Virus record (IMG/VR): IMGVR_UViG_2645728091_000017
Span: 1-23,397 of that record
Source: a virus
Lineage: Duplodnaviria; Heunggongvirae; Uroviricota; Caudoviricetes
DNA: 23,397 nt
Reading direction: 5' to 3' (one strand)
Made by a program: the position numbers and the translations under genes. The notes under the pieces are model-generated. The model was not told the origin of the DNA and made no database searches. It saw only the letters and a program-made list of their open reading frames with translations. This document shows, in pieces, positions 1 to 23,397 of the stretch; the stretch's first letter is position 1, and every line of letters starts with the position of its first letter.

Positions 1-717
1 ATGCTGATTGTATCTGTTCTCAAATGCGGTAAAGAATTTACCCCCAAACACGCACAATGGCTGCATAGCCAATTTAAAGGCATACCTTCAATTTGCTTAA
101 CTGATGCTGGAAGTATCCCTGGTGTTGAAACCGCACCGTTAATGCATAACCTTCCAGGTTGGTGGTCTAAGATTGAGCTTTTTAATCCAAACCATCCGGT
201 AATAGGTGATAAGGATCTGCTTTATTTTGACGTTGATGTTGTCATAACTGGTGATATCAAAATCTTTGATGCGGCGAAAGAGTTCACTATGCTGCGTGAG
301 TTTAACCACCCTTCCAGGGTTAACTCATCCATTATGTTCATTCCTGCGTCTATCAAACAATATGTTTGGGATGCGTTCTGGACTGACCCCGAAAAAAATA
401 TGCATGAATGCCAAACAGAAGATAAATGGGGTGATCAGGGATTTCTGGGCAGCGTCATGAAACCTGTATTGTGGCAAGATATAATTCCCGGCTCTGTTGT
501 TAGTTACAAATGCCATATAGCCACACGCAAAATGATAGGTTACAACCCTGACTTGGCATCAGATTATGCTACTGGCAAAGTTCCTGATGATGTTTCAGTT
601 GTATGTTTTCACGGTAGTCCTCGCCCATGGCGAACAGGGTTCAGTTGGGTTCCTTCCTTTTCTGTACGCGATACCCTGTATGGTAAATTCAAAAATTTTA
701 AACTCAGTTTGAAGTAA
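1..717 (+). CDS. Hypothetical protein, AT-rich moron; possible DxD-motif glycosyltransferase-like enzyme (speculative). May be 5'-truncated by the window edge
   Basis: 238-codon ORF on the strand opposite the late operon, visibly lower GC than the structural genes, followed by a strong intrinsic terminator. Contains LLYFDVDVVITGD (D-x-D-like). No family recognised with confidence. Confidence 0.35.
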   Translation: MLIVSVLKCGKEFTPKHAQWLHSQFKGIPSICLTDAGSIPGVETAPLMHNLPGWWSKIELFNPNHPVIGDKDLLYFDVDVVITGDIKIFDAAKEFTMLREFNHPSRVNSSIMFIPASIKQYVWDAFWTDPEKNMHECQTEDKWGDQGFLGSVMKPVLWQDIIPGSVVSYKCHIATRKMIGYNPDLASDYATGKVPDDVSVVCFHGSPRPWRTGFSWVPSFSVRDTLYGKFKNFKLSLK

Positions 718-1680: not shown

Positions 1681-3384
1681 TCAGGCAATGATGTTCTGGT
1701 ACTTGCTCCGGGTCTGTCCGGCCTTTGTCGCCGTCTGGGTAAATGCTCCGGCATTGGTTGGCGTACCAACACTGGGGTGCGAATGGCTTGCGCACTGCTG
1801 CGCCAGTTCTGCCAGTAAATCAATGGTGTCCAACATCATGGTCAGCGTGTTTATACTCTCACTGCCGATATGGACGGTTGGCCCCATAATCTGCTGACCG
1901 CCCGATGCCACCGATTTGCGTAATGCAGCAATCTTTTCAGTCAGGGTTCCCCCCACATCAACATCTACGGCTCCCGCCACATTAGTGGACTGTTTCCCGA
2001 TTATCTCAGTTTCATCATTCCCTTCAATACTGGCCAGCCTGTTACCTTTCACCGCCTGGCTATAGTCACCAGCACTTACCTGCTGGATGGCTCCGGCCAG
2101 CAGTGTGGCGGTTCCCAGTACCGTGGTTTTATCCGTGGCTTTCACCGTGGTTTCACGGCTGACCAGTTCGCGCTGTTCCGTATCGGCTTTTACGGTTCGC
2201 GCCATCGATGTTTCACTGATGGTCTGATCGGTCTGCCTTACCCAGTCACCCGCCTGAGTCACCCTCTGAGATACTTCTTCCCGCTGCTGCTGTAATTGCT
2301 CACCGGGTTTAACGTCCGGCAGGCTGGTACCATCCGGCAGCGTCTGCCTGATAAAGGGTTTATCCGGTCTGCCCCCCGTGAATGCAACCTCAACCAGCGT
2401 CCCTTCTGGCGGAAACTGAAACATACCCGAATCATTCCCGGCCATCGGTACCGGCAACGGCACCGCTGAATAAACAGGCGTCTGATTGTCCGGGTTTCCG
2501 TCTGCGTCAAGCAGCTGCACGTCCACGGCGTAACGTGGCCGGAAGGGATCGGCAAAGTTACCGCTTTTTACCGGCTCTGAATGCGCCACGACTCTGGTCA
2601 TCTTTGGCAAATGAAGCCCGGATGCCAGTTCCGGGTAATGGCTTTCAATCTGCCGTTGCGCCGGTGTTTTCTGCAAAGGTTTACCCGTTGCGCGGTTTCT
2701 CGGCGTCCATGTGATCGCCATCGTGTCATTCGTCAGGTGAACTTTAGTCACGCGTTCACCGTTCATCTCCACCCCTGGCCGCATAGTCTGGATCACTGGT
2801 AATGTCACAGAGTTACCGCCAGCAGCCCCCTGGCTGAACTCTGACGGGATTTCTACAGGACGACCGGCAAACAATGACTTTTCTGCGCCGCCGACGTAAA
2901 GCGAACCATCAGGCAACTGGTACCAGATGTAATCCTGGATACTGAACGCCCTGCCCAGATTGTTCAGCAACTGATAACCAGTACCGTTATGGGTAAAATG
3001 TGGGATGGGGGTATCGCTGTACTGTGCATCAGGCACACTGACTGTGATCCCGCTGTTTTCTTCCAGCCAGCCCGCAATTTCACGCAAAGTCGGGTGTTGA
3101 AACGAACATGGCCACATCCTCTCAAACACACCTGCCAGCTCACGAATGAACAGACGCTGAAAACCGTTTTCAGCGGGCTGCGATCGCTCCACATACCCCG
3201 TAAACCAGCGCAAAAGCAGATCGGTATACCCCACATCCAGCCGCACCAGTTTTCCGGTGTAATCGGTTGTTGTCTCTGCGGTGATGAAGCCCCGGCCGCA
3301 GCTGTTCAGCTCCAGTACCAGGCTGGCATCCACCAGGTGAACTTCATCCGTTGAAAGATAAAGGCGTTTTACTGGTTTCATCAT
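1681..3384 (-). CDS. Late-operon protein, 567 aa, function unassigned (position suggests a tail or baseplate component, possibly gpD-like hub)
   Basis: Long ORF with high GC; its start overlaps the stop of the upstream gene at 3384. No diagnostic motif recognised; assignment is positional only. Confidence 0.5.
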   Translation of the reverse strand: MMKPVKRLYLSTDEVHLVDASLVLELNSCGRGFITAETTTDYTGKLVRLDVGYTDLLLRWFTGYVERSQPAENGFQRLFIRELAGVFERMWPCSFQHPTLREIAGWLEENSGITVSVPDAQYSDTPIPHFTHNGTGYQLLNNLGRAFSIQDYIWYQLPDGSLYVGGAEKSLFAGRPVEIPSEFSQGAAGGNSVTLPVIQTMRPGVEMNGERVTKVHLTNDTMAITWTPRNRATGKPLQKTPAQRQIESHYPELASGLHLPKMTRVVAHSEPVKSGNFADPFRPRYAVDVQLLDADGNPDNQTPVYSAVPLPVPMAGNDSGMFQFPPEGTLVEVAFTGGRPDKPFIRQTLPDGTSLPDVKPGEQLQQQREEVSQRVTQAGDWVRQTDQTISETSMARTVKADTEQRELVSRETTVKATDKTTVLGTATLLAGAIQQVSAGDYSQAVKGNRLASIEGNDETEIIGKQSTNVAGAVDVDVGGTLTEKIAALRKSVASGGQQIMGPTVHIGSESINTLTMMLDTIDLLAELAQQCASHSHPSVGTPTNAGAFTQTATKAGQTRSKYQNIIA

Positions 3385-3929
3385 TAACCCAAAGCATCAT
3401 TGACGGGCTTCAGCACTTTGCGTTCAAACCACGTCAGTTTTTCTTCATCTTCTCCGGCAGACTGGCCACCGTTCTGTCCCGCACTACCGGCAGTCTGTTT
3501 TTTTGCGGTCGTCTTACCTGTTGCCCTGGCCTCTCGCTTTTCCTGCACGCTGATATGTTCCGCCAGTGTGAATGTCACCAGCCAGGACATTTTCCCGTCC
3601 TGCTGGGGTGCATCCAGCATTCCGCTGAACGTTGCTTCACGAAAGTTAACAGCACGGGCAACTTCATGCGCCACACGGTACTTCTGACGATTACCACTGG
3701 CATCGGTCGCACTGGCCAGCTCAAAAATACGCTTCAGAATTTCAGGCTGTTTAAAAGGTATTTCACCGCTGATCCGCAGTTCCTTTCCCTTTGCTCCCTG
3801 CTCTGATTTTGTTGTGGCGCTGGTCTGGCCGGACTGATCTTTATCCTGAAATTGCTGTGAAACAGTCACCCGCATGTTTTTCAGCTGGATGGCCTCGCCA
3901 TTAAGCGCCAGTGTCGGGATCGAAGTCAT
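3384..3929 (-). CDS. Late-operon protein, 181 aa, function unassigned (possible tail protein)
   Basis: ORF translationally coupled to both neighbours; charged and Gln/Ala-rich C-terminus. Family not recognised. Confidence 0.45.
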   Translation of the reverse strand: MTSIPTLALNGEAIQLKNMRVTVSQQFQDKDQSGQTSATTKSEQGAKGKELRISGEIPFKQPEILKRIFELASATDASGNRQKYRVAHEVARAVNFREATFSGMLDAPQQDGKMSWLVTFTLAEHISVQEKREARATGKTTAKKQTAGSAGQNGGQSAGEDEEKLTWFERKVLKPVNDALG

Positions 3930-4662
3930 GAATCATTCCCTTTATTCCATCAAGATTATCGCCAACCAGCATCATGGCAGCGGTGTAAACGGCAGACTGC
4001 TGCGGAATGTCCTTCATCAGTTCCAGTAACGTGGTGCCGGTATCTCCGCTGGCAGTAAAAACCCACGCTCTGGCACTCTTTCCCTGTAAATCATTCAGGC
4101 CGCTGGCCACATCTCTGATAAGCTGGTCACGCAGCTGCGTGAACTCGCCCAGCTGTTTTTTCAGCCCTTCGATATCAAACCCGGCACACGCCGCCTTTTG
4201 TGCCTGGCTGATTGCCATAGCAGATAAAGCTGCCCTGCTGGTTGGTACAGACAGTGGAATGGACGCAGGTAACGCTGCGGCGGCTTTCGCCGGGATCTGC
4301 ATCTTTTCAATAGCCAGCGCTGCGAAGGATTGCGCCAGCCGTTTTACCTGCGTGAATGCCGGGGCGGGGAAAATCCCGACCAGGTTATTCAAGCTGGCCA
4401 TAAAGTTTTCCTGCGTCTGTCCGGTGACCATCATAATCACCACGTCCGCATTCCCCCCCGTTCCGGCCAAGCGTTCAGCAAGATAGCGAACGGCATTAAC
4501 CGGGCTGAGATATGCCCCGTTCGCAGTCTGCTGTCCCAGCCCATAAATCCACGGATGCGCAGGGACGATCGAACAGTTCAGCGCAGCAACAGAATCCGTG
4601 AAGGCCAGACGTGCTTCACGCCACATTTCCAGGCACCTCCGGCCACACAATTTCCGGTGCAT
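3901..4662 (-). CDS. Late-operon protein, about 240-253 aa, function unassigned
   Basis: ORF immediately downstream of the tail fiber assembly gene in the same operon. True start may be the internal Met of MWREARLAF. Family not recognised. Confidence 0.45.
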   Translation of the reverse strand: MHRKLCGRRCLEMWREARLAFTDSVAALNCSIVPAHPWIYGLGQQTANGAYLSPVNAVRYLAERLAGTGGNADVVIMMVTGQTQENFMASLNNLVGIFPAPAFTQVKRLAQSFAALAIEKMQIPAKAAAALPASIPLSVPTSRAALSAMAISQAQKAACAGFDIEGLKKQLGEFTQLRDQLIRDVASGLNDLQGKSARAWVFTASGDTGTTLLELMKDIPQQSAVYTAAMMLVGDNLDGIKGMIHDFDPDTGA

Positions 4663-5207
4663 CTTCCGGTTGAATACGGTTCAGTAAAACGCGGTATTTT
4701 TTCCATGCGGTAAGCAGCAGTGCTTCTTCTTCGGTCGCCATGTCTAAATCAACGGCATCCTGCAATGTGGCAATGGCGTCACTGGCCTGTTTAAGCAGTC
4801 TTTTCTTTTCGGCATCTGCCTCGCTGACTAATGCAATTCGCATGGCCTCCGCATCATCCACCCACCCACGCCTTACCATTCCATTTTTGCCAGGCATTAG
4901 CCGGTGCTAACGTGGTTGTCCCTTCCGGGTACCCCCCTGGCTCGATGATCACCACTTCATTACCGTTTTCTGTATCAAACACCACCTCACCACGATGATC
5001 CTCACGGGAAATCCATCTTTGCTTCTCTGAATCAAAAATTGCCACAAACCCCGCTTTGATTACCGGTGGTTTTATTGTGGTGCAGTTGACTGGCAGTCCG
5101 GTATGCGCAGGTATAAAAGCATCACCCGAACCAATAAATTCATTCGTGTCTGAACGCAGGTTATAAACAGTAACTGTTTGATCGGTTTCACTCATTTTAA
5201 AAGTCAT
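4616..5207 (-). pseudogene. Tail fiber assembly protein (Tfa/gpG-like) split by a frameshift
   Basis: N-terminal part (4854..5207, MTFKMSETD...QKWNGKAWV) and C-terminal part (4616..4897, ...DDAEAMRIALVSEADAEKKRLL...) lie in different frames and together resemble one Tfa. The junction is in the repeat TGGGTGGGTGG (minus strand, about 4857..4868). Confidence 0.6.
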
Positions 5208-6781
5208 TATGCGAGTCTCACTATGTAGTTAAATGCAATATTCTTAACTGTCGTTTCTGTGTTACCCGACGCGGCGACGCTAATCGTGTGACTATGTGCG
5301 CCAATTGCTACGGTATGAGAGTGAGCGCCAATACCTACGGTGTGATTGTGTGCGCCAATAGCTACGGTGTGCGCATGGTTTCCCGCCGAACTTGTAGTAG
5401 TCGCGCCCTTATCCTGTCTGGGTACACCATAATCCGAACCGCCAGACTGCACACTAACGGCAAACCCGACAGTGTGCGTATGCGCCCCCGTTGTATTTGT
5501 CGTTTTCGTGCCATAGTCAAATGTGCTCGCCGTTTTAGTACCGTAATCAAATGAGGATGTTGATTTCGTCCCCAAATCGGTACTGGATGCACTGGCTGTG
5601 TGTGAGTGGGATTTATTACCATCATCTTCATAGGACAAAACTTCGCGGCCGTCTGGTTTCCCTTTGATTGTCCAGCGGCGCATGTCAGGAATAACACCCG
5701 ACGGATACGCGATGGCCAGTAAAGGATATGCAACCTTATCAAAAGATTGTCCCTGCATAATTGCCCACCCTACAGGCGGGATATTCGTTGGCCACGGAAG
5801 CGGCACACCAACCGGCAGAACATCACTACGACTTAAAACCGCCAGTTCACCCAGTTCCAGACTTTTTCTGGCTTTCGCTTTGTCGTTAACATCAGCAAGG
5901 TTTGCATCCTTACGCAAAAAATCGCTGCTGGCCTGCTGTTCTCCCAGGCTACCTTTTGGCCGTAGATCCGTGATGTTGCCATCCACATCAATGCTGGCCA
6001 CCGCAAACACATAATGCTGAACCCCGTTCTGAACGTAATCAGCAAGATTTGCAGCCACCGTGATTTTGCTCTGCACATTCCAGACACTGGTCAGCGTCCC
6101 TGTCCAGCACACATCCAGCCAGACTTTTACCGGCTTTGTCGTCACCGTAATATTCTGATTCGCAGCCAGTGACGCACGAAGTCCAGCCACATAACCCGTG
6201 CCTTTCGTGACAAAAAACTGATTGCCGGTTTTGGCTACCAGATACCCGTTACCAAAAAACGCAGCCGCACCATAGATATCCATATTTTCAAGGCGCTGGC
6301 GCTCATCCATTCCGGCCATACGCGCGGTGAAATCAATCTGCCAGGTCTCAGCGGGCGTATTAATCCCGGTTTCCGTTTGTGCGCCGTTGTACTCCATCAG
6401 AAACGAGCGGGTCAGCACGTTCCCCTGTTGCCCTTCTTTTGTTTTCAGTTTCTGCTGTGATGGTGCATGGACAATCATTGCCAGCGTACCGCTGGCCTTA
6501 TTGAGCAGACCGATCCAGTTAAAACTGAAATCACCCACATCTGCGCCCAGCACTACGGAATAAACCACCCCGTTTTCATTCACCACACCTGTGCGGGTAA
6601 CAGACTGCCGGTGAACAATCTGTGCTGTCGGGGGCAACGCTTCATTGCGATCAACAGGTGTATCCGGGTTTAAATCCGGCACACTGGCAAAAACAAATTC
6701 GTCCAGTAGTACCGGTTCACCCGTTGCGCCCTGCTGTGCTTTCCAGTTTTCAAACGCCAGTGTGATGGCTGTCTGTGACAT
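5207..6781 (-). CDS. Tail fiber protein (P2 gpH-like N-terminus; C-terminal tip with His-x-His repeats)
   Basis: 524 aa. Position between the baseplate genes and Tfa, with a 1-nt stop/start overlap (TAATG) with Tfa. C-terminus carries DYGTKT(A/T)S(T/S)F repeats and GAHxHTV(A/G)I repeats. Confidence 0.8.
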
Positions 6782-6791
6782 AAAAACCTCC

Positions 6792-7385
6792 TTACAAACT
6801 CGCGCTGAATATTGCGCTGCGGGCTTCCGTCCCTGCTAACGTCGCCGGGTAAACCATATATTCCCCCTGATCCCATCCAGCCCTGATAACCAGGCTTTCA
6901 GACGTGATCACCTCAAACTGATAACGGCGGCATGTTCGCCCGTACTGGCGGATTATCTGGATCAGCAGCTGCGTGTTGTCTGCAATCTGGCTGTCTGTAA
7001 CCCGAACAAGAATTACATCCCAGTCGATATCCGGTTGCCGTTCTAACAGCTCCACATAACCAATCCCCAGCCGTTCAAAGATATTGATAAACCCCTCTAC
7101 TGAACCGGCATCCCGCGCATTCACAAAGGCAAAAGCCACGCGTTTGCGGAACAGAGGCAACGGTTCACCATCAAAACGGGTTATATCCCGGTCATAAGCC
7201 AGCAGGTTCAGTAATGCCGGTGTACACGTCAGCGGATCAAACTGATTCGTTGGCCAGGTAACCCAGCCGTAAACCTCAGCCCAGAACCGCCGCGCCGTTT
7301 TCAGCAATTTCCCCGGTTCGCCTTTATTCATCCAGGAAGGCAAGACCATCCCGGCCAGCTTTTTCATGAACTCATTCATTCTCAA
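6792..7385 (-). CDS. Baseplate protein, P2 gpI-like tail protein I
   Basis: About 195 aa, located between the baseplate J-like gene and the tail fiber gene as in P2 (J-I-H order). Confidence 0.55.
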
Positions 7386-8558
7386 TATTCACCGTCAGTG
7401 ATTTCAGACGCGGCACGCTAAGTTCACTGGTAATGTCTCCCAGCGAAAATGTCAGTGATTCTGTCTGCGCAAAGGTTTTATGAATTTCCCGCCCCAGTTG
7501 CGAAAAGGAAAACCGTGAATATGGCCACGTCTTTCTGACGTCATAATCAGCATTTTCACGAAAGGCACAGCGGATCATGTTCTCAATGCCGCCCTTCAGC
7601 GTTTTCACCTCTTCGTCACTGAAGTTGTTTAGATTTTTGACATAAACAGTGACGGCCAGATCGTGAAGCGTTTCCGGCATGGGATAACACTGCATATCAT
7701 CACCGTGCCCGTGATGTCCCAGCGTGTTGATATAGTCATTCACCGCATCCACGAACGGCGCTGATGCCACCCCACTGTCCAGTAATAAAAAGGCGTTGGC
7801 TGTTCCTGGCCCCCTCGGTGCTTCATGCTCAAAGAAAATCCGATCTATACTCAGCCCGGCAACACTGGCGATCATTGAGCGATAGACCGCATCAGTGTGG
7901 TAATTCCCCACAAGATTAAACTGATTGCGGCAACGCTCGCGCAGTTCATCATCACTTTCCTCGTCAGCCCCCGGTACGGTCAGCCAGTTTTCCTCACTGA
8001 CCACATGGCTGATACCACTGACCGCCACCGGCAGAATGCGGTAATATCCAGGCGCAAGGTTATACGCGCCCCCGGTGCCGGTGGCTTTCACCGGCAGTAA
8101 TGCGCTGGCCGCACCGGAAGCGATCACCACATCCTCAGTGGTGGCCACCTCATAAACTCGCCCGTTAATGCGTTCTGTCTGGATAACCGTCCCGGCTTTC
8201 ACCGTCACCACAGCTTTTGCATCTTCTTTGAAGAAGCGGATCACCCCATGTGCAGCGCTCGCCGGTTTTGCCGTGACGTTCACCGCCCAGGCCAGCAGAC
8301 GCAACATGCTCCCGCTGGCTGTGGCCACAAACATATTGGCCAGCACGGTTAACACCAGAACGTCTTTAAGCCACATCACCGGGGCAGTCACAATGGCGGT
8401 GATTAATCGCCAGAACGGTGACATTCGGGATGTATTGGTGATAATTCCCTCATCTGCTGCAATTGCATTGAAGCGTTCCCGCACTTCGGCTTCCGTTACC
8501 GGCATACCGCTGTCTTTCACCACTTCTTCAAAATCAACCTGCGGTTTTTCCGTCATAA
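7372..8558 (-). CDS. Baseplate J-like protein (P2 gpJ / Mu gp47 family)
   Basis: About 395 aa with family-like composition, upstream of the gpI-like gene. Start is probably MTEKPQVDFEE, directly abutting the upstream stop; the ORF track extends it to 8610. Confidence 0.7.
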
Positions 8559-8882
8559 ATCCACCTGCGCAGAGATCCCGCCAAAATCGTATGTACTCGC
8601 GGTTACCCACAGCCGCTTCTGACTTTCTTCACTGATTTCCACCGTACCCGGCACAATGCGTTCATCATCTTCAATCAGTAATTCCATGCGGGTAAAAATA
8701 TCCGCTCTCATTGTCGGGCTACGTTCGGCGATTAATTCCGTCGCTAACCCGCTTTCAATAATGGAATGAATAATGTCCTGCCCGATACTTTTTCGGTTAT
8801 TACATAATTCAGGTTCATTACCGGTATTCAGAACAAAGTCACCGCCCTGAATCAGCAAGTCGATATAGAGAACATTACTCAT
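8553..8882 (-). CDS. Small baseplate protein (gpW/gp25-like or DUF2590-like)
   Basis: About 110 aa between the tape measure and baseplate J genes. Start MSNVLY overlaps the tape measure stop (ATGA) with GGAG 9 nt upstream. Confidence 0.5.
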   Translation of the reverse strand: MSNVLYIDLLIQGGDFVLNTGNEPELCNNRKSIGQDIIHSIIESGLATELIAERSPTMRADIFTRMELLIEDDERIVPGTVEISEESQKRLWVTASTYDFGGISAQVDL

Positions 8883-18600: not shown

Positions 18601-18761
18601 ATCCCCCCTGATTTATTCACCGACGCTGCAAATCAATTATTGCCAAATAAAACCACCACCGCATCACGCTTTATTCTGAACAGTTCGGTTATCACGTATT
18701 ACCGAACAGACGCGAATTAACACCACCGTTTTTTCATAACAGCCACGGCATAATTATCCGC
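18601..18761. promoter_or_regulatory. Divergent late promoter region between O and P, with a 7-bp perfect dyad GTTCGGT-N11-ACCGAAC at 18683..18707
   Basis: 161-bp intergenic region between divergently transcribed O and P, as in P2 where divergent late promoters sit. The dyad is read directly from the sequence; its function as an activator site is inferred. Confidence 0.4.
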
Positions 18762-20478
18762 ATGGCTAAATACTCAGAAGAACTAAAAGGCGTTGTCCGC
18801 GCACTTTATTTGCGCCGCTATACGCCAAAAGAAATTGCATCAGAACTAAATCTGCCGAATGCGCGGATCGTTTACTACTGGGCTGAGAAATACAGCTGGG
18901 CTGATTTACTCAGTTTTGAAAGCACAGAGGAGGCAATTGAACGTCGCTACCAGCTGCTGGCCAGCCGCGATAATAAAACCGATCTAGACCTCAAAGAAAT
19001 GGACATGCTGATTGCCCACGCCACAAAGCTACGTGCTCAAAGCAATAAGCATAAAGAAAAGATGGCCAGCGGCCAGAGTAACGGGCAGGCAGCTGCGCGC
19101 GACAGCAACAGCGATGAACCGCGCCCCAAACGCAAAAACAGGAAAAACGATATTTCTTCTCTGACTCAGGCGGATTTTGACACCTGGGCGGAAGAACATC
19201 TTTTTGAATACCAGAAACACCTGCGCAGGAACATCGGCCAGCAGGTCAGGAACATCCTTAAAAGCCGCCAGATCGGTGCCACCTGGTACTTTGCATTTGA
19301 AGCCTTTGAAAACGCGGTCATGACAGGCGATCCGCAAATCTTCCTGTCTGCCTCCAAAGTCCAGGCGGAATACTTCCGGTCTTACATCGTCAACATTGCA
19401 GAACAGTATTTTGGCATCACGCTGACCGGCAACCCGATCCGCCTCAGCAACGGCGCTGAACTGCGTTTTCTCTCAACCAACAAAAACACGGCACAGTCCT
19501 ACAGTGGCCACCTGTACTGTGACGAATATTTCTGGGTGCCTAACTTCGCCAGGCTTAACGAAGTGGCCAGCGCAATGGCCACCCATGACAAATGGCGTAC
19601 CACCTACTTTTCAACGCCCTCAGCCAAAACGCACCAGGCTTACCCGTTCTGGACGGGTGAAGAATGGAAACAGGGCAGCAAAAAACGCGCGGCCGCCCAG
19701 TTCCCGTCCTTTGATGAAATGCGTAACGGCGGGCGGCTTCAACCTGGCCAACATCGAGAAGCTGCGCAACCGCTACAACACCGCCACCTTCAACATGCTC
19801 TATATGTGCGTGTTCGTAGACAGCAAGGATTCCGTATTCAGCTTTTCAGACCTGGAAGCCTGCGGCGTGGAGGTGGATACCTGGCAGGATCACAATCCGG
19901 ACGCTGCGCGGCCATTTGGTGACAGGCCAGTATGGGGAGGATTTGACCCGGCACGCAGCGGCGATTTGTCGTGTTTTGTGATTATTGCCCCGCCGATGTA
20001 CGCCGCAGAGAAATTCCGCGTTCTGAAGGTCATTAACTGGAAGGGCATGAACTTCCGCTATCAGGCCAGGCAGATCGAACTCCTGTTTAAAAAATACAAC
20101 TTCACCTATCTGGGAGTGGACGTTACCGGTATTGGCCAGGGTGTTTTTGACAACATCCAGCATTTTGCCATGCGCGTGGCCGTCGCCATTCGTTACGACA
20201 TGAACACAAAAAATCAGCTGGTACTGAAAGCGGCGGACGTGGTGGAAAGTCAGCGTATTGAATGGGACAAGAACCTGAAAGAGATCCCGGCCAGCTTTAT
20301 GGCTGTACGCCGCACCACCACGCAAAGCGGTAACGCCATGACATTTGTCGCTGACCGCAGCCAGGACACTGGCCACGCGGAGGCGTTCTGGGCAATTACC
20401 CACGCCCTGCATAACGAACCACTCAACTACGAAAACAAACCGAAATCCCGCTGGGGTGTAAGGAAAGAGGCTGCATGA
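18762..20478 (+). pseudogene. P: Terminase large (ATPase) subunit, P2 gpP-like, interrupted by a +1 frameshift
   Basis: N-terminal ORF (18762..19922) is terminase-like up to ...SFDEMRNG, then reads a nonsense tail. The downstream ORF (19504..20478) becomes terminase-like from GFNLANIEKLRNRY. Junction is at GGCGGGCGGC (19728..19737); removing one G restores a single reading frame of about 570 aa. Confidence 0.8.
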
Positions 20479-20530
20479 GTAAAAAAACCGCTTCGTTAAG
20501 CGCAACCCGCGCGGCGATAAGTCCAAAAAA

Positions 20531-21535
20531 ATGAGCATCATCACATTCGGCAAACCGGAACCTGTCCTGACCACCGGCACGGATTACCGCGACATCTGGT
20601 ACGACAATGCCGCAGATCACTTTACCCAGCCGATTGACCGGCTGGCACTGGCACAGCTTATCAATCTGAATGGTCAGCATGGCGGCATCATCCACGCCCG
20701 GAAAAATATGATTGTGTCTGATTATATGGGCGGTGGCCTGACTTACGACCAGCTGGAAGCCGCAGCGTTTGACTATACAACCTTCGGGGATATTGCGATT
20801 GGCAAAATCCGCAACGGCTGGGGGGATGTGATTGCCCTGGAACCTTTACCCGGCCTGTATATTCGCCGCCGTAAAGTCAGGGACAACGCCACAGACCAGC
20901 CCGGCGATTATGTGGTGTTACAGGATGGTGAACCGCAGGTATGGCCGCAGGAAGATATCATTTTTATCAAGATGTACGACCCGCAGCAGCATATCTACGG
21001 GCTGCCAGACTATATCGGTGGCGTACACTCGGCATTGCTTAACAGTGAAGCCGTGATTTTCCGCCGCCGCTACTACCACAACGGCGCTCATACTGGCGGC
21101 ATTCTCTATACACGCGATCCCAGCATGACGGATGAAATGGAAGAAGAAATTGAACAGCAGCTGCGTGACAGCAAAGGTATCGGCAACTTCTCGACCATTC
21201 TGGTGAACATACCTGGCGGGGATGGGGATGCAATCAAGTTCATTGAAATGGGGGATATCTCTGCAAAAGATGAATTTGCCAACATCAAAAACATCAGCGC
21301 ACAGGACATTCTCAACGCACACCGCTTTCCCGCTGGGTTGGCCGGAATTGTCCCGCAGAACACCGCTGGCCTGGGGGATGTTGAAAAGGCGGAAAGGATT
21401 TACAAGAAAAGCGAAATAGCACCTATTCAGCGCCGATTTATGACTGCCGTGAACAACGATCCCGAAATACCGAAACGTCTGCACCTTCACTTTGATTTAA
21501 GTTACACAGAATCAACGGATAAGGATGCGGCATGA
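20531..21535 (+). CDS. Q: Portal protein, P2 gpQ-like
   Basis: 334 aa directly downstream of P on the same strand; size and composition match P2-family portal proteins. Confidence 0.85.
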   Translation: MSIITFGKPEPVLTTGTDYRDIWYDNAADHFTQPIDRLALAQLINLNGQHGGIIHARKNMIVSDYMGGGLTYDQLEAAAFDYTTFGDIAIGKIRNGWGDVIALEPLPGLYIRRRKVRDNATDQPGDYVVLQDGEPQVWPQEDIIFIKMYDPQQHIYGLPDYIGGVHSALLNSEAVIFRRRYYHNGAHTGGILYTRDPSMTDEMEEEIEQQLRDSKGIGNFSTILVNIPGGDGDAIKFIEMGDISAKDEFANIKNISAQDILNAHRFPAGLAGIVPQNTAGLGDVEKAERIYKKSEIAPIQRRFMTAVNNDPEIPKRLHLHFDLSYTESTDKDAA

Positions 21536-21585
21536 GGCGAAAAAGGCTAAAATCCAAGCATCATTTAACAGCTGGAGCATGGAAT

Positions 21586-21855
21586 ATGCGAGTTCTGAAA
21601 ATCGAATGCCCGGAATGCGGCTCAAAGGCTGTTATTCGTAAAACAAACCGGAAGCACCGGCAGATTGCGGATATTTACTGCGCCTGTTCAGATGTGGAGT
21701 GTGGCCATACGTTTGTTATGAATCTGACGTTCTCCCACACTCTCAGCCCCAGCGCGAAAACAGGTGATGCGATGGTTCAAGTCCTACTTAACAACTTATC
21801 ACCGTCTCAAAAACAGATGGCACTGGATTTACTGAAAGCCACACCCGCGGCGTGA
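21586..21855 (+). CDS. ogr: Ogr/Delta-family zinc-finger late-gene transcriptional activator
   Basis: MRVLKIECPECG...YCACSDVECGHTF gives the Cys arrangement typical of P2 Ogr / P4 Delta; GGAG 8 nt upstream. An alternative upstream start at 21532 overlaps the Q stop (ATGA) with AAGGA upstream. Confidence 0.75.
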   Translation: MRVLKIECPECGSKAVIRKTNRKHRQIADIYCACSDVECGHTFVMNLTFSHTLSPSAKTGDAMVQVLLNNLSPSQKQMALDLLKATPAA

Positions 21856-22005
21856 GGATATCTCCTGTTTGAGTCATCACTTATGCACAGAATGCTCTTT
21901 CTAGACCCATGACAGTGATCTCTGATATCTTTTCATTATAAGATCAGTGCGTTAAATTTTTTGCATTATATTATTACCTAAAATTGGTGCAGGAGATCTC
22001 CTAGA
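21856..22005 (+). promoter_or_regulatory. AT-rich intergenic region upstream of the cargo gene, bracketed by GGATATCTCCT (21856..21866) and the palindrome AGGAGATCTCCT (21991..22002)
   Basis: Sharp drop in GC after the ogr stop. Sigma70-like hexamers (TTGCAT at 21961, TAAAAT at 21979) are present but with non-canonical spacing, so the promoter call is tentative. Confidence 0.35.
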
Positions 22006-23043
22006 ATGTTTGGTTCAAAGCTTGTAACTAAACTGTGGGAAACCACAGCAGAAAAAGGTATTGGTGCTTTATGTAAGCCCTGGCAAATGCGTAGAGAGGG
22101 AGTTGCCAGTTTAGAAATGGAAAGAAAAAAAATGTTAGTTCTGGCTCAAACAGAGATGGATGTCGAGAACATAAAAAGCGGAAAAGCCATCGTTTCGTTA
22201 AATGATCTAAACAATCCCAAATTGATTTCATTAGAAAATAAACAAGAGTATGATAATTCAGGTTCAATGGAGCCTTACATAGATTTCGATAACTTAAAAA
22301 ACGCAGTAAGTACTCAACTCATTGCAAATGAAGTTCAAAAAGAAATAAACATTGCCAAGTCATTATTTGTTGCTGAAGAAATACTTTCTGTTGATCAGTC
22401 TGAGCCTACTGCTGAAAATATCGAAAATGATTGGTTGCTAAGGTGGAGAGATAGTGCTGCGACAAGTAGTTCTGAGAAGCTACAGGATTTATGGGGAAGA
22501 ATACTTGCAGGTGAACTAAAAAGCCCGGGGTCGTATTCATTAAGAACTGTTGATTTCATCAAAAACCTGACACAAAAAGAAGCAAATAAAATACAAAAAC
22601 TATTCTCTTTCCTCTTTCTTGATAGAATTATCAAGGGGGAAAAAGGTAGTTCTAAATTCGACAATGAATACTTAGATAATGAACTGAACTATAATTTTTT
22701 ATCTGAGATGCAGTCACTCGGAATCATTGCTGGGGTTGAGTCAATGGGATTAGCCTCAACTTTCAAGTCTCTTAGTGAAGAAACCTTTTTTTATTATCAT
22801 ATGTATAATGATAAAGTAATGCAGATTAAACATGACGATCCAGAGAAAGAACTTAAACTAAGGGTTTTAATTCTAACGCCACTTGGCCATGAGTTAAAAA
22901 GTTTATGCCCTGCTACAATTGATAGCATTTATCTCAATCATGTTATTGATGCGATTAAATCATTAGATTTTAAAGTTATCATTGGTGATTGCATACGTAA
23001 AGAAAATGGGGAAATATACTCTAAAAATGAAGTAGAAGTTTAA
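22006..23043 (+). CDS. AT-rich cargo protein of unknown function, 345 aa; candidate single-gene anti-phage defence or exclusion protein
   Basis: Long ORF in markedly AT-rich DNA between the ogr-like gene and a hairpin terminator. AGGAG 8 nt before the ATG. Contains NDWLLRWRDSAATSSSEKLQDLWGRILAGELKSPGSYSLRTVDFIKNLTQKEANKIQKLF, which I recall as DUF2806-like (unverified). Not a virion, lysis or replication gene. Confidence 0.7.
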   Translation: MFGSKLVTKLWETTAEKGIGALCKPWQMRREGVASLEMERKKMLVLAQTEMDVENIKSGKAIVSLNDLNNPKLISLENKQEYDNSGSMEPYIDFDNLKNAVSTQLIANEVQKEINIAKSLFVAEEILSVDQSEPTAENIENDWLLRWRDSAATSSSEKLQDLWGRILAGELKSPGSYSLRTVDFIKNLTQKEANKIQKLFSFLFLDRIIKGEKGSSKFDNEYLDNELNYNFLSEMQSLGIIAGVESMGLASTFKSLSEETFFYYHMYNDKVMQIKHDDPEKELKLRVLILTPLGHELKSLCPATIDSIYLNHVIDAIKSLDFKVIIGDCIRKENGEIYSKNEVEV

Positions 23044-23063
23044 AAACGTAAAAAATCATATCC

Positions 23064-23095
23064 CCCTCACTTTTATCAAAATAAAGTGAGGGTTT
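23064..23095. terminator. Hairpin terminator between convergent genes (possibly bidirectional)
   Basis: Perfect 10-bp stem CCCTCACTTT / AAAGTGAGGG (23064..23073 and 23083..23092) with a 9-nt loop, followed by TTT on the plus strand. Confidence 0.5.
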
Positions 23096-23193
23096 AAGAG
23101 ATATAGATGAATTTATAGTCAACTTACTATTAATCATCTTAAACACTATAACATTCGGCACCTTACAACTGAGATTATAGTATTGTCAATGAG

Positions 23194-23397
23194 TTAACAT
23201 TCCCCATCAGATACTGGAAAGGCCCCTGACCTTGTTTTTTTTAAATCTTTTCTAAGATCGTGTCGCATTTCTCCTGCAATCTCACCAATCCAGGCCAAAG
23301 CGATTGTTTTCTCGCGCTGGTCACTTTCGTACACATGGGCAATTTTGGCCAATAACTCAATGCGCTCCAGCTGTGCCGACGCTTCCAAAAGATCCAT
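23194..23397 (-). CDS. C-terminal fragment of a minus-strand gene continuing beyond the window (unknown function)
   Basis: ORF open to the window edge, ending ...PVSDGEC at 23194; convergent with the cargo gene. No family recognised. Confidence 0.3.
   Translation of the reverse strand: MDLLEASAQLERIELLAKIAHVYESDQREKTIALAWIGEIAGEMRHDLRKDLKKTRSGAFPVSDGEC

What the first reader, a model, noticed from the sequence alone, without database searches (positions are those of the whole stretch)
19700..19760. Large terminase gene interrupted by a single-base insertion in a GGC repeat
The terminase reading frame breaks at GGCGGGCGGC (19728..19737). The upstream frame gives ...FDEMRNG then nonsense; the +1 frame continues with GFNLANIEKLRNRY... 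Deleting one G would restore a full-length P2-type large terminase. If real, the prophage cannot package DNA and is cryptic, which would make retention of its cargo genes notable. It could also be a sequencing or assembly error.
Basis: seen in the sequence. Interest (0 to 1): 0.55.

Follow-up and report, generated by a model that had tools for sequence, protein, structure and literature searches.

The report
Terminase gene broken by 59-bp deletion
The large-terminase gene of a P2-like prophage in E. coli is truly broken, but by a 59-base deletion between two short repeats and not by one extra base; this is an ordinary, very recent case of prophage decay inherited by one bacterial lineage.

Summary
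Near-isogenic intact prophages read AACG[GCGGACGGCTT + 48 bp]GCGGGCGGCTT. The window has lost the bracketed 59 bp, one copy of an 11-nt imperfect direct repeat plus the spacer. The string GGCGGGCGGC is native sequence with no extra G. Removing one G would give a 571-aa protein that lacks 20 residues (GRLCPDGQWRYVITMEDAIA). These lie inside the ATPase domain and include a motif invariant in 19 homologues and conserved in P2 gpP.

It is not an assembly error. The exact truncated product is on at least 18 contigs from NCBI, SRA (SRR/ERR/DRR) and ENA assemblies, and 13 retrieved copies differ from the window by 0-2 SNPs. Two more slippage lesions travel with it: A8->A7 just after the portal start, and a 4-bp tandem duplication splitting the tail-fibre assembly gene. 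Repairing each lesion in silico gives a protein that exists exactly in public data. dN/dS of 0.03 and zero substitutions over 3.7 kb against an intact sibling show the inactivation is very recent. Retention of the cargo gene (DUF2806/Abi-alpha-like, in the known gpA-gpQ hotspot) therefore says nothing about selection. This is ordinary prophage decay and of low interest.

The parts
18762..19728 (+). terL 5' part in its authentic frame, residues 1-322 plus the first base of codon 323. It carries Terminase_5 and the first ~182 of 215 positions of the Terminase_6N ATPase domain.
   Evidence: 4 aa differences from EcPF15 TerL and 2 from P0001.
19729..19739 (+). Retained repeat copy R2 (GCGGGCGGCTT). 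The deletion junction lies between 19728 and 19729. Intact siblings have R1 (GCGGACGGCTT) plus 48 bp inserted here.
   Evidence: repeat family D10, spacing 59.
19729..19922 (+). Out-of-frame tail of the N-terminal fragment, about 64 nonsense codons up to stop TGA 19920-19922. The called product of 18762..19922 is 386 aa.
19729..20478 (+). terL 3' part in its authentic frame (+1 relative to the 5' part), residues 343-591 of the intact protein. It holds the end of Terminase_6N and the Terminase_6C nuclease domain. Gene callers report a 203-aa fragment at 19867..20478.
   Evidence: 0 aa differences from EcPF15 in this part.
20475..20534 (+). Original portal start ATG (overlapping the terL stop) followed by an A7 run (20481-20487) where siblings have A8. 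It now encodes a 19-codon nonsense ORF (MSKKTASLSATRAAISPKK*) whose TGA overlaps ATG 20531.
20531..21535 (+). Portal ORF from the internal ATG, 334 aa instead of 353 aa, lacking the 19 N-terminal residues.
4616..5207 (-). Tail-fibre assembly gene split by a 4-bp tandem duplication at 4866-4869: + strand (CCAC)2->3, coding strand (GTGG)2->3. Fragments are 4854..5207 (117 aa, Caudo_TAP_N) and 4616..4897 (Caudo_TAP).
22006..23043 (+). Cargo gene: 345-aa DUF2806 (weak Abi_alpha) protein, 34% GC, inserted between ogr and the gpA side. This is the variable hotspot of P2-like phages. It is context for the finding, not part of the lesion.

Best explanation
A P2-like (Peduoviridae, ESSI-2/Quadragintavirus-type) prophage is integrated between mntS and mntR of an E. 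coli lineage. Its large-terminase gene suffered a 59-bp deletion by slipped-strand mispairing, or another RecA-independent short-homology event, between two 11-nt imperfect direct repeats 59 bp apart (R1 GCGGACGGCTT, R2 GCGGGCGGCTT). R1 and the 48-bp spacer were lost and R2 was kept. The deletion removes residues ~324-343 (GRLCPDGQWRYVITMEDAIA) inside the ATPase domain and shifts the frame. The result is a 386-aa N-terminal fragment with a nonsense tail, and a nuclease domain with no upstream translation. The lesion is inherited clonally together with two other slippage-type lesions, portal A8->A7 and a tfa 4-bp duplication. The prophage is therefore a very recently inactivated, packaging-defective remnant. 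Shown: the lesions, their nature, their inheritance, their recency and the intact sibling alleles. Inferred: the slippage mechanism (from the repeat signature), loss of TerL function and inability to form infectious particles.
For: The 59-bp gap is flanked by the repeats in 2 distant and 6 near-isogenic intact genes, and the repeat pair is found independently with spacing 59. All full-length hits in E. coli genomes and phages are about 60 nt longer than the query. The best 120 homologues are 583-639 aa and none is near 570. The deleted motif CPDGQWRY.IT.EDAI is invariant in 19 homologues of 75-95% identity, is conserved in P2 gpP, and lies inside Terminase_6N, residues 164-385 of the intact protein. 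The exact 386-aa product is on 18 contigs, the 203-aa fragment on 19, the 334-aa portal on 20 and the 117-aa tfa fragment on 21, coming from NCBI, Logan SRR/ERR/DRR runs and ENA metagenomes. The junction and the A7 run are identical in L004-L008 and L018, and 13 copies of the broken lineage differ from the window by 0-2 SNPs. The repaired TerL (591 aa), portal (353 aa) and Tfa (195 aa) each exist as exact sequences, on 962, 33 and 12 contigs. Intact sibling L017 has 0 substitutions over 3.67 kb. dN/dS against EcPF15 is 0.03, compared with 0.05-0.06 between intact genes. The other 25 prophage genes compared are full length.
Against: No raw reads were inspected. No experiment shows loss of packaging. 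The retained repeat carries the R2 base at the one mismatched position, so exact homology at the breakpoint is only 4 nt (GCGG), and the precise molecular route (replication slippage or another microhomology-mediated route) cannot be told apart. Similar short repeats are common in the gene (15 families), so the repeat pair is a signature and not a hotspot. The portal lesion may be tolerated, because a coupled restart at ATG 20531 could give a portal lacking 19 N-terminal residues.
Confidence: 0.93

Rival explanations
1. Single-base insertion of a G in a GGC repeat. Removing it would restore a full-length functional terminase.
For: Locally, reading 19728-19737 alone, a +1 shift reconnects two terminase-like frames.
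Against: Every intact homologue contains GCGGGCGGC unchanged and in frame. The window lacks 59 bp upstream of that string. The one-G repair gives 571 aa instead of 591 and lacks an invariant ATPase-domain motif.
Confidence: 0.01
2. A sequencing or assembly artefact in this one assembly, with the real genome carrying an intact terL.
For: The portal lesion is a homopolymer-length change, a typical error type.
Against: A 59-bp loss and a 4-bp duplication are not typical read errors. The identical junction, A7 run and tfa duplication recur in independent assemblies made by different centres and assemblers, including NCBI GCA_002460965.1, GCA_019502985.1 and GCA_048120765.1, Logan SRR/ERR/DRR runs and ENA metagenomes. 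Intact alleles with the same repeats are assembled intact by the same pipelines. An 11-nt repeat is too short to collapse in an assembly graph (inference).
Confidence: 0.02
3. The split is functional. Either programmed recoding (+1/-2 frameshift) yields a shortened TerL, or the ATPase and nuclease halves work as separate polypeptides.
For: Both halves retain recognisable Pfam domains and show no further damage. The dN/dS of 0.03 would also fit continued constraint.
Against: The arrangement is absent from all homologues. The missing segment is invariant in the family. No slippery motif is evident at GGC GGG CGG CTT (sequence inspection). The lesion co-occurs with two other frame-disrupting lesions in morphogenesis genes. 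The low dN/dS is explained by recency, since there are 0 substitutions against an intact sibling.
Confidence: 0.02
4. Selected inactivation or domestication. Loss of virion functions was favoured in this clone, removing the risk of lytic death while the immunity and defence cargo was kept.
For: Three independent lesions all hit virion genes, while the lysogeny/replication module and the DUF2806 cargo are intact. A sibling lineage lost the tail and lysis module by a separate 13-kb deletion. The broken lineage has been sampled about 20 times.
Against: About 85% of the window is virion genes, so three random indels would mostly land there anyway. The event is too recent to detect differential retention. 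The intact TerL allele is far more common, 962 against 18 contigs.
Confidence: 0.12

Closest known systems
Phage P2 gpP (large terminase, NP_046758) and the P-Q / O-N-M packaging-head gene cluster
   Same: 43% identity over 567 aa (E = 3e-153). Same Terminase_5 + Terminase_6N + Terminase_6C architecture and the same ~590-aa length in intact alleles. Same gene order: terL followed by portal, divergent from scaffold-capsid-small terminase.
   Different: The window copy is a pseudogene, with a 59-bp deletion and frameshift. The phage belongs to the ESSI-2/Quadragintavirus-like branch of Peduoviridae (88% DNA identity to ESSI2_ev129), not to Peduovirus P2 itself.
Spontaneous deletions between short direct repeats (slipped-strand mispairing, as classically described for E. 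coli lacI deletions; from general knowledge, not retrieved here)
   Same: The deleted segment is bounded in the ancestor by an 11-nt 10/11 direct repeat. One copy plus the spacer is lost and one copy is retained.
   Different: The repeat is imperfect. The retained copy carries the R2 base, so exact homology at the breakpoint is only 4 nt.
Defective or cryptic prophages of Enterobacteriaceae (prophage decay and domestication)
   Same: Inactivating indels in morphogenesis genes, vertical inheritance in a host clone, and an alternative large-deletion derivative in a sibling lineage.
   Different: This is a very early stage. Only 3 small lesions are present, every other gene is intact, and near-isogenic intact siblings are still circulating.
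gpA-gpQ variable defence hotspot of P2-like phages (Rousset et al. 2022, PMC9122126) and the DUF2806/Abi-alpha-like anti-phage protein 'Belisama' (bioRxiv 10.1101/2024.07.02.601686)
   Same: The low-GC DUF2806 ORF lies between portal/ogr and the gpA side, which is the described hotspot. It has the same Pfam domain as Belisama.
   Different: No defence activity was tested for this protein, and it has no PADLOC v2 hit. It is context only and not part of the terL lesion.

Membership tests
P2 gpP-type large terminase (TerL) | Significant full-length sequence similarity to P2 gpP | tested here: met
   The intact sibling allele against NP_046758 gives 43% identity over 567 aa, E = 3e-153. The window copy is 568/570 identical to that allele outside the deletion.
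P2 gpP-type large terminase (TerL) | Domain architecture Terminase_5 + Terminase_6N (ATPase) + Terminase_6C (nuclease) | tested here: met
   All three domains are found. In the window they are split over two frames, and Terminase_6N is cut at profile position 182 of 215.
P2 gpP-type large terminase (TerL) | P2-type synteny: terL then portal on one strand, divergent from the scaffold, capsid and small-terminase genes | tested here: met
P2 gpP-type large terminase (TerL) | One uninterrupted ORF of ~590 aa (a functional gene) | tested here: not met
   A 59-bp deletion with frameshift gives 386-aa and 203-aa fragments. The copy is therefore a pseudogene of this family.
P2 gpP-type large terminase (TerL) | ATPase and nuclease activity, DNA packaging | not testable with these tools
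   Needs biochemistry or an induction assay. The structure model was unusable (pLDDT 41).
Deletion by slippage between short direct repeats | The ancestral sequence has direct repeats exactly bounding the deleted segment, and the derivative keeps one copy | tested here: met
   R1 GCGGACGGCTT and R2 GCGGGCGGCTT lie 59 nt apart in 6 near-isogenic intact siblings. The window keeps one copy.
Sequencing or assembly artefact | The lesion is confined to one assembly and absent from independent data of the same lineage | tested here: not met
   The identical junction occurs in at least 18 contigs from NCBI, Logan and ENA sources.
Programmed translational recoding site | The frame shift is conserved among homologues | tested here: not met
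   All 120 best homologues are single ORFs of 583-639 aa. The junction pattern has 0 matches in three collections, against 56 for the intact pattern.
Intact (plaque-forming) P2-like prophage | A complete set of uninterrupted morphogenesis genes | tested here: not met
   terL, the portal start and tfa are disrupted, while the other 25 genes compared are full length.

The most novel reading that the evidence does not exclude
The three slippage lesions are not neutral decay but the first steps of selected 'grounding' of a P2-like prophage in a successful E. coli clone. Virion production is abolished, while immunity, replication genes and an Abi-alpha-like (DUF2806) defence cargo in the gpA-gpQ hotspot are kept. 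A sibling lineage reaches the same end through a 13-kb deletion of the tail and lysis genes.
Probability: 0.12. Interest if true: 0.35.

Novelty: already known. Interest (0 to 1): 0.1.

Why it matters
It matters little beyond correct annotation. The terL locus should be annotated as a pseudogene caused by a 59-bp deletion, and the prophage as defective, with three lesions. The case is a clean natural example of very early prophage decay. The broken lineage and near-isogenic intact siblings co-exist in public data, so the exact ancestral sequence and the mutational mechanism (short-repeat slippage in all three lesions) can be read directly. It also shows that a locally plausible one-base frameshift can be a larger deletion, which only comparison with homologues reveals.

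Tried and rejected
1. AlphaFold2 model of an intact homologue from a 19-sequence alignment: mean pLDDT 41, so it was unusable and no fold search was run.
2. Sequence and profile searches of the PDB to place the deleted segment in a solved TerL structure: nothing for the single protein, and only weak nuclease-domain hits (E about 0.4) for the profile. Pfam domain boundaries were used instead.
3. PADLOC scan of the cargo ORF and the left-end ORFs: no hits.
This was solved through the cargo protein and the tail-fibre protein.
5. Junction-pattern scans of species-representative genomes, IMG/VR and JGI metagenomes: 0 matches, so the deletion is not recurrent there. A positive control found 56 intact matches.
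6. My first in-silico repair placed the insertion one base off, at 19729|19730. It was corrected to 19728|19729.
7. Considered and rejected: a programmed frameshift, a functional split terminase, and a tailocin-like domestication. The last was rejected because tfa is also broken and the head genes are intact.

Full report
**Observation.** The ORF starting at ATG 18762 reads ...SFDEMRNG and then runs out of frame to a stop at 19920-19922, giving 386 aa. The +1 frame reads GFNLANIEKLRNRY... and continues to 20478.

**What the lesion is.** Megablast of 18700-20600 against phage records and complete E. coli genomes gave full-length matches that all come in two pieces and span about 60 more bases than the query, 1961 against 1901.
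- Alignment with an intact E. coli prophage gene (EcPF15, 97.4% identity) and with phage ESSI2_ev129 (88%; Peduoviridae, Quadragintavirus) shows a clean 59-bp gap in the window right after ...ATGCGTAACG.
- Six near-isogenic intact siblings, retrieved later, all read AACG[GCGGACGGCTT TGCCCGGATGGTCAGTGGCGCTATGTCATCACGATGGAGGATGCCATT]GCGGGCGGCTT. The window and another copy of its lineage (L018) lack the bracketed 59 bp.
- The lost segment is one copy (R1) of an 11-nt 10/11 direct repeat plus the 48-bp spacer, and the second copy (R2, window 19729-19739) is kept. A repeat search on an intact gene finds this pair independently with a spacing of exactly 59 (family D10).
- This is the classical signature of slipped-strand or short-homology deletion. 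That attribution rests on established knowledge, so the mechanism is inferred and not observed.
- Fifteen similar short repeat families occur in the gene, so the pair is a signature and not a special hotspot.
It encodes Ala-Gly-Gly in every intact gene.

**Consequence for the protein.** Intact alleles are 591 aa with Terminase_5 (13-63), Terminase_6N (164-385) and Terminase_6C (412-571).
- The deletion removes residues ~324-343 (GRLCPDGQWRYVITMEDAIA) inside the ATPase domain and shifts the frame.
- In the window, the Terminase_6N match stops at profile position 182 of 215, and the nuclease domain lies in the other frame.
- Removing one G would restore the frame but would give a 571-aa protein without these 20 residues.
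- The motif CPDGQWRY[VI]IT[ML]EDAI is invariant in 19 homologues of 75-95% identity. It is also recognisable in P2 gpP as LCADGQWRQIVTIEDAL, at 43% overall identity and E = 3e-153.
- None of the best 120 database homologues is shorter than 583 aa.
- I could not place the segment in a solved structure. The AlphaFold model was unusable (pLDDT 41), and the PDB searches gave nothing useful.

**Not an artefact.** The exact 386-aa product is encoded on contigs from an NCBI assembly (GCA_002460965.1), from Logan assemblies of SRR, ERR and DRR runs, and from ENA metagenomes.
- Exact-sequence look-ups count 18 contigs for the N-terminal fragment and 19 for the 203-aa C-terminal fragment.
- Five such loci carry the identical junction at 99.85-100% identity to the window.
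- In total, 13 retrieved copies of the broken lineage differ from the window by 0-2 SNPs, plus one in-frame 21-bp deletion elsewhere in L004.
- The window has variant bases at 2598 and 15731 that most copies lack. L025 and L026 share the 2598 T.
- Intact alleles with the same repeats are assembled intact by the same pipelines.
- The degenerate junction pattern has 0 matches in species-representative genomes, IMG/VR and JGI metagenomes, while the intact pattern has 56 matches in IMG/VR. The deletion is a private allele of one lineage and is neither a normal variant nor a recurrent event.

**Surroundings.** The window is most of a P2-like prophage. It contains the tail, lysis and head genes, terL, portal, ogr and a cargo gene.
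- The flanking host DNA is 99.9% identical to E. coli, closest to the O127:H6 E2348/69 lineage. The element lies between mntR and mntS.
- A gene-by-gene comparison with an intact relative shows 25 genes at full length (73-100% amino-acid identity) and three disrupted genes: terL, portal and tfa.
- Portal: the A8 run just after the start codon is A7 in the window (20481-20487). The old start now opens a 19-codon nonsense ORF whose TGA overlaps ATG 20531, so a 334-aa portal lacking 19 N-terminal residues could still be made by coupled re-initiation. P2 gpQ also has about 20 residues ahead of the equivalent Lys-Met. Whether the truncation is tolerated is unknown.
- Tail-fibre assembly gene (tfa): a 4-bp tandem duplication at 4866-4869, coding strand (GTGG)2->3, splits the 195-aa protein. 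A 99.86%-identical sibling (L024) has the unduplicated sequence.
- The broken products occur on closely matching numbers of contigs (18, 19, 20 and 21). All three lesions are on the same NCBI contig. They therefore travel together.

**Recency.** Repairing each lesion in silico yields proteins that exist as exact sequences in public data.

|---|---|---|
| TerL | 591 aa | 962 |
| Portal | 353 aa | 33 |
| Tfa | 195 aa | 12 |

- Sibling L017 (GCA_036604525.1) has intact terL and portal. It has zero substitutions relative to the window over 19729-23397 apart from the A-run.
- The contig of L016 is also the longest contig carrying the repaired Tfa, so that genome appears to hold a fully intact sibling.
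- Against EcPF15, the window's terL has 40 synonymous and 4 nonsynonymous differences, a dN/dS of 0.03. Intact-versus-intact comparisons give 0.05-0.06. There is thus no trace of relaxed constraint.
- The inactivation is very young. Retention of the remaining genes, cargo included, is the default expectation and is not evidence of selection.

**Cargo.** The ORF at 22006-23043 (345 aa, 34% GC against about 52% for the prophage) is a DUF2806 protein with weak Abi_alpha similarity.
- It lies between portal/ogr and the gpA side. This is the variable defence hotspot described for P2-like phages (PMC9122126).
- A DUF2806/Abi-alpha-like protein has been reported as the anti-phage system Belisama (bioRxiv 10.1101/2024.07.02.601686).
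- PADLOC v2 has no hit for it.
- The identical protein is on 51 contigs, including the siblings with intact terL. It is therefore not specific to the defective lineage.

**Rivals.**
- A one-base insertion is excluded by the alignments.
- An artefact is excluded by independent recurrence.
- Programmed recoding or a functional split terminase is very unlikely. The arrangement has no conservation among homologues, an invariant motif is lost, no slippery site is evident, and the lesion is accompanied by two other lesions.
- Selected inactivation cannot be excluded but has no positive support. Most of the window is virion genes, so random indels would land there anyway.

**Verdict.** This is a 59-bp short-repeat deletion in a P2-type terL, one of three co-inherited slippage lesions in a freshly defunct E. 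coli prophage. It is an ordinary phenomenon of low interest, useful mainly for correct annotation and as a tidy example of early prophage decay.

Noticed in passing
window 20475-20534: The portal gene's A8 run just after its start codon is A7 in this lineage. The old ATG now opens a 19-codon nonsense ORF whose TGA overlaps the next in-frame ATG (20531), so a 334-aa portal lacking 19 N-terminal residues may still be translated by coupling. NCBI annotates the 334-aa form as 'phage portal protein'.
   Followed up: yes
window 4866-4869 (gene 4616-5207, minus strand): A 4-bp tandem duplication, (CCAC)2->3 on the + strand, splits the tail-fibre assembly gene into 117-aa and ~81-93-aa pieces. A 99.86%-identical sibling (L024) has the intact 195-aa gene.
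   Followed up: yes
window 22006-23043: A low-GC (34%) 345-aa DUF2806 / weak Abi_alpha ORF is inserted between ogr and the gpA side, the known defence hotspot of P2-like phages. It is absent from relative L003. The identical protein is on 51 contigs across E. coli, Salmonella and Citrobacter. It has no PADLOC hit.
   Followed up: partly
L019 (GCA_015190325.1) versus window 2640..15944: A sibling prophage at the same site, with 14 similar places not shown, has intact terL and portal but has lost about 13.3 kb, covering the whole tail, lysis and head-completion module. This is an independent route of decay of the same element.
   Followed up: partly
window 1-717 (+) and 809-1260: The 238-aa ORF at the prophage/mntR boundary has no Pfam or PADLOC hit. 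It replaces the serine acetyltransferase gene found at the same position in relative L003, so this may be a second variable cargo position at the tail-side end of the prophage. GC is about 42%.
   Followed up: partly
window 15750-15998 (minus strand; variable region 15749-16005): The small ORF (82 aa) between the head-completion gene and gpM lies in a stretch that does not align with L003. It is length-variable among siblings (32, 75, 82, 83 and 97 aa called), and L004 has an in-frame 21-bp deletion at 15879-15899.
   Followed up: no
L012 (ENA ERZ28588494), equivalent to window ~2180: One metagenome copy of the broken lineage has an extra C that splits the 567-aa gene (window 1681-3384) into 410 + 154 aa. 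This is either further decay or a metagenome assembly error.
   Followed up: no
L020 and L021/L022 (siblings), right of the window: Sibling prophages differ in the early region. The RNase_T exonuclease gene is split in L020, the exonuclease is absent in L021, and L022 lacks the methylase/DUF3850/exonuclease block while carrying an extra KAP_NTPase-like gene next to the integrase gene. This shows modular variation of accessory genes.
   Followed up: no
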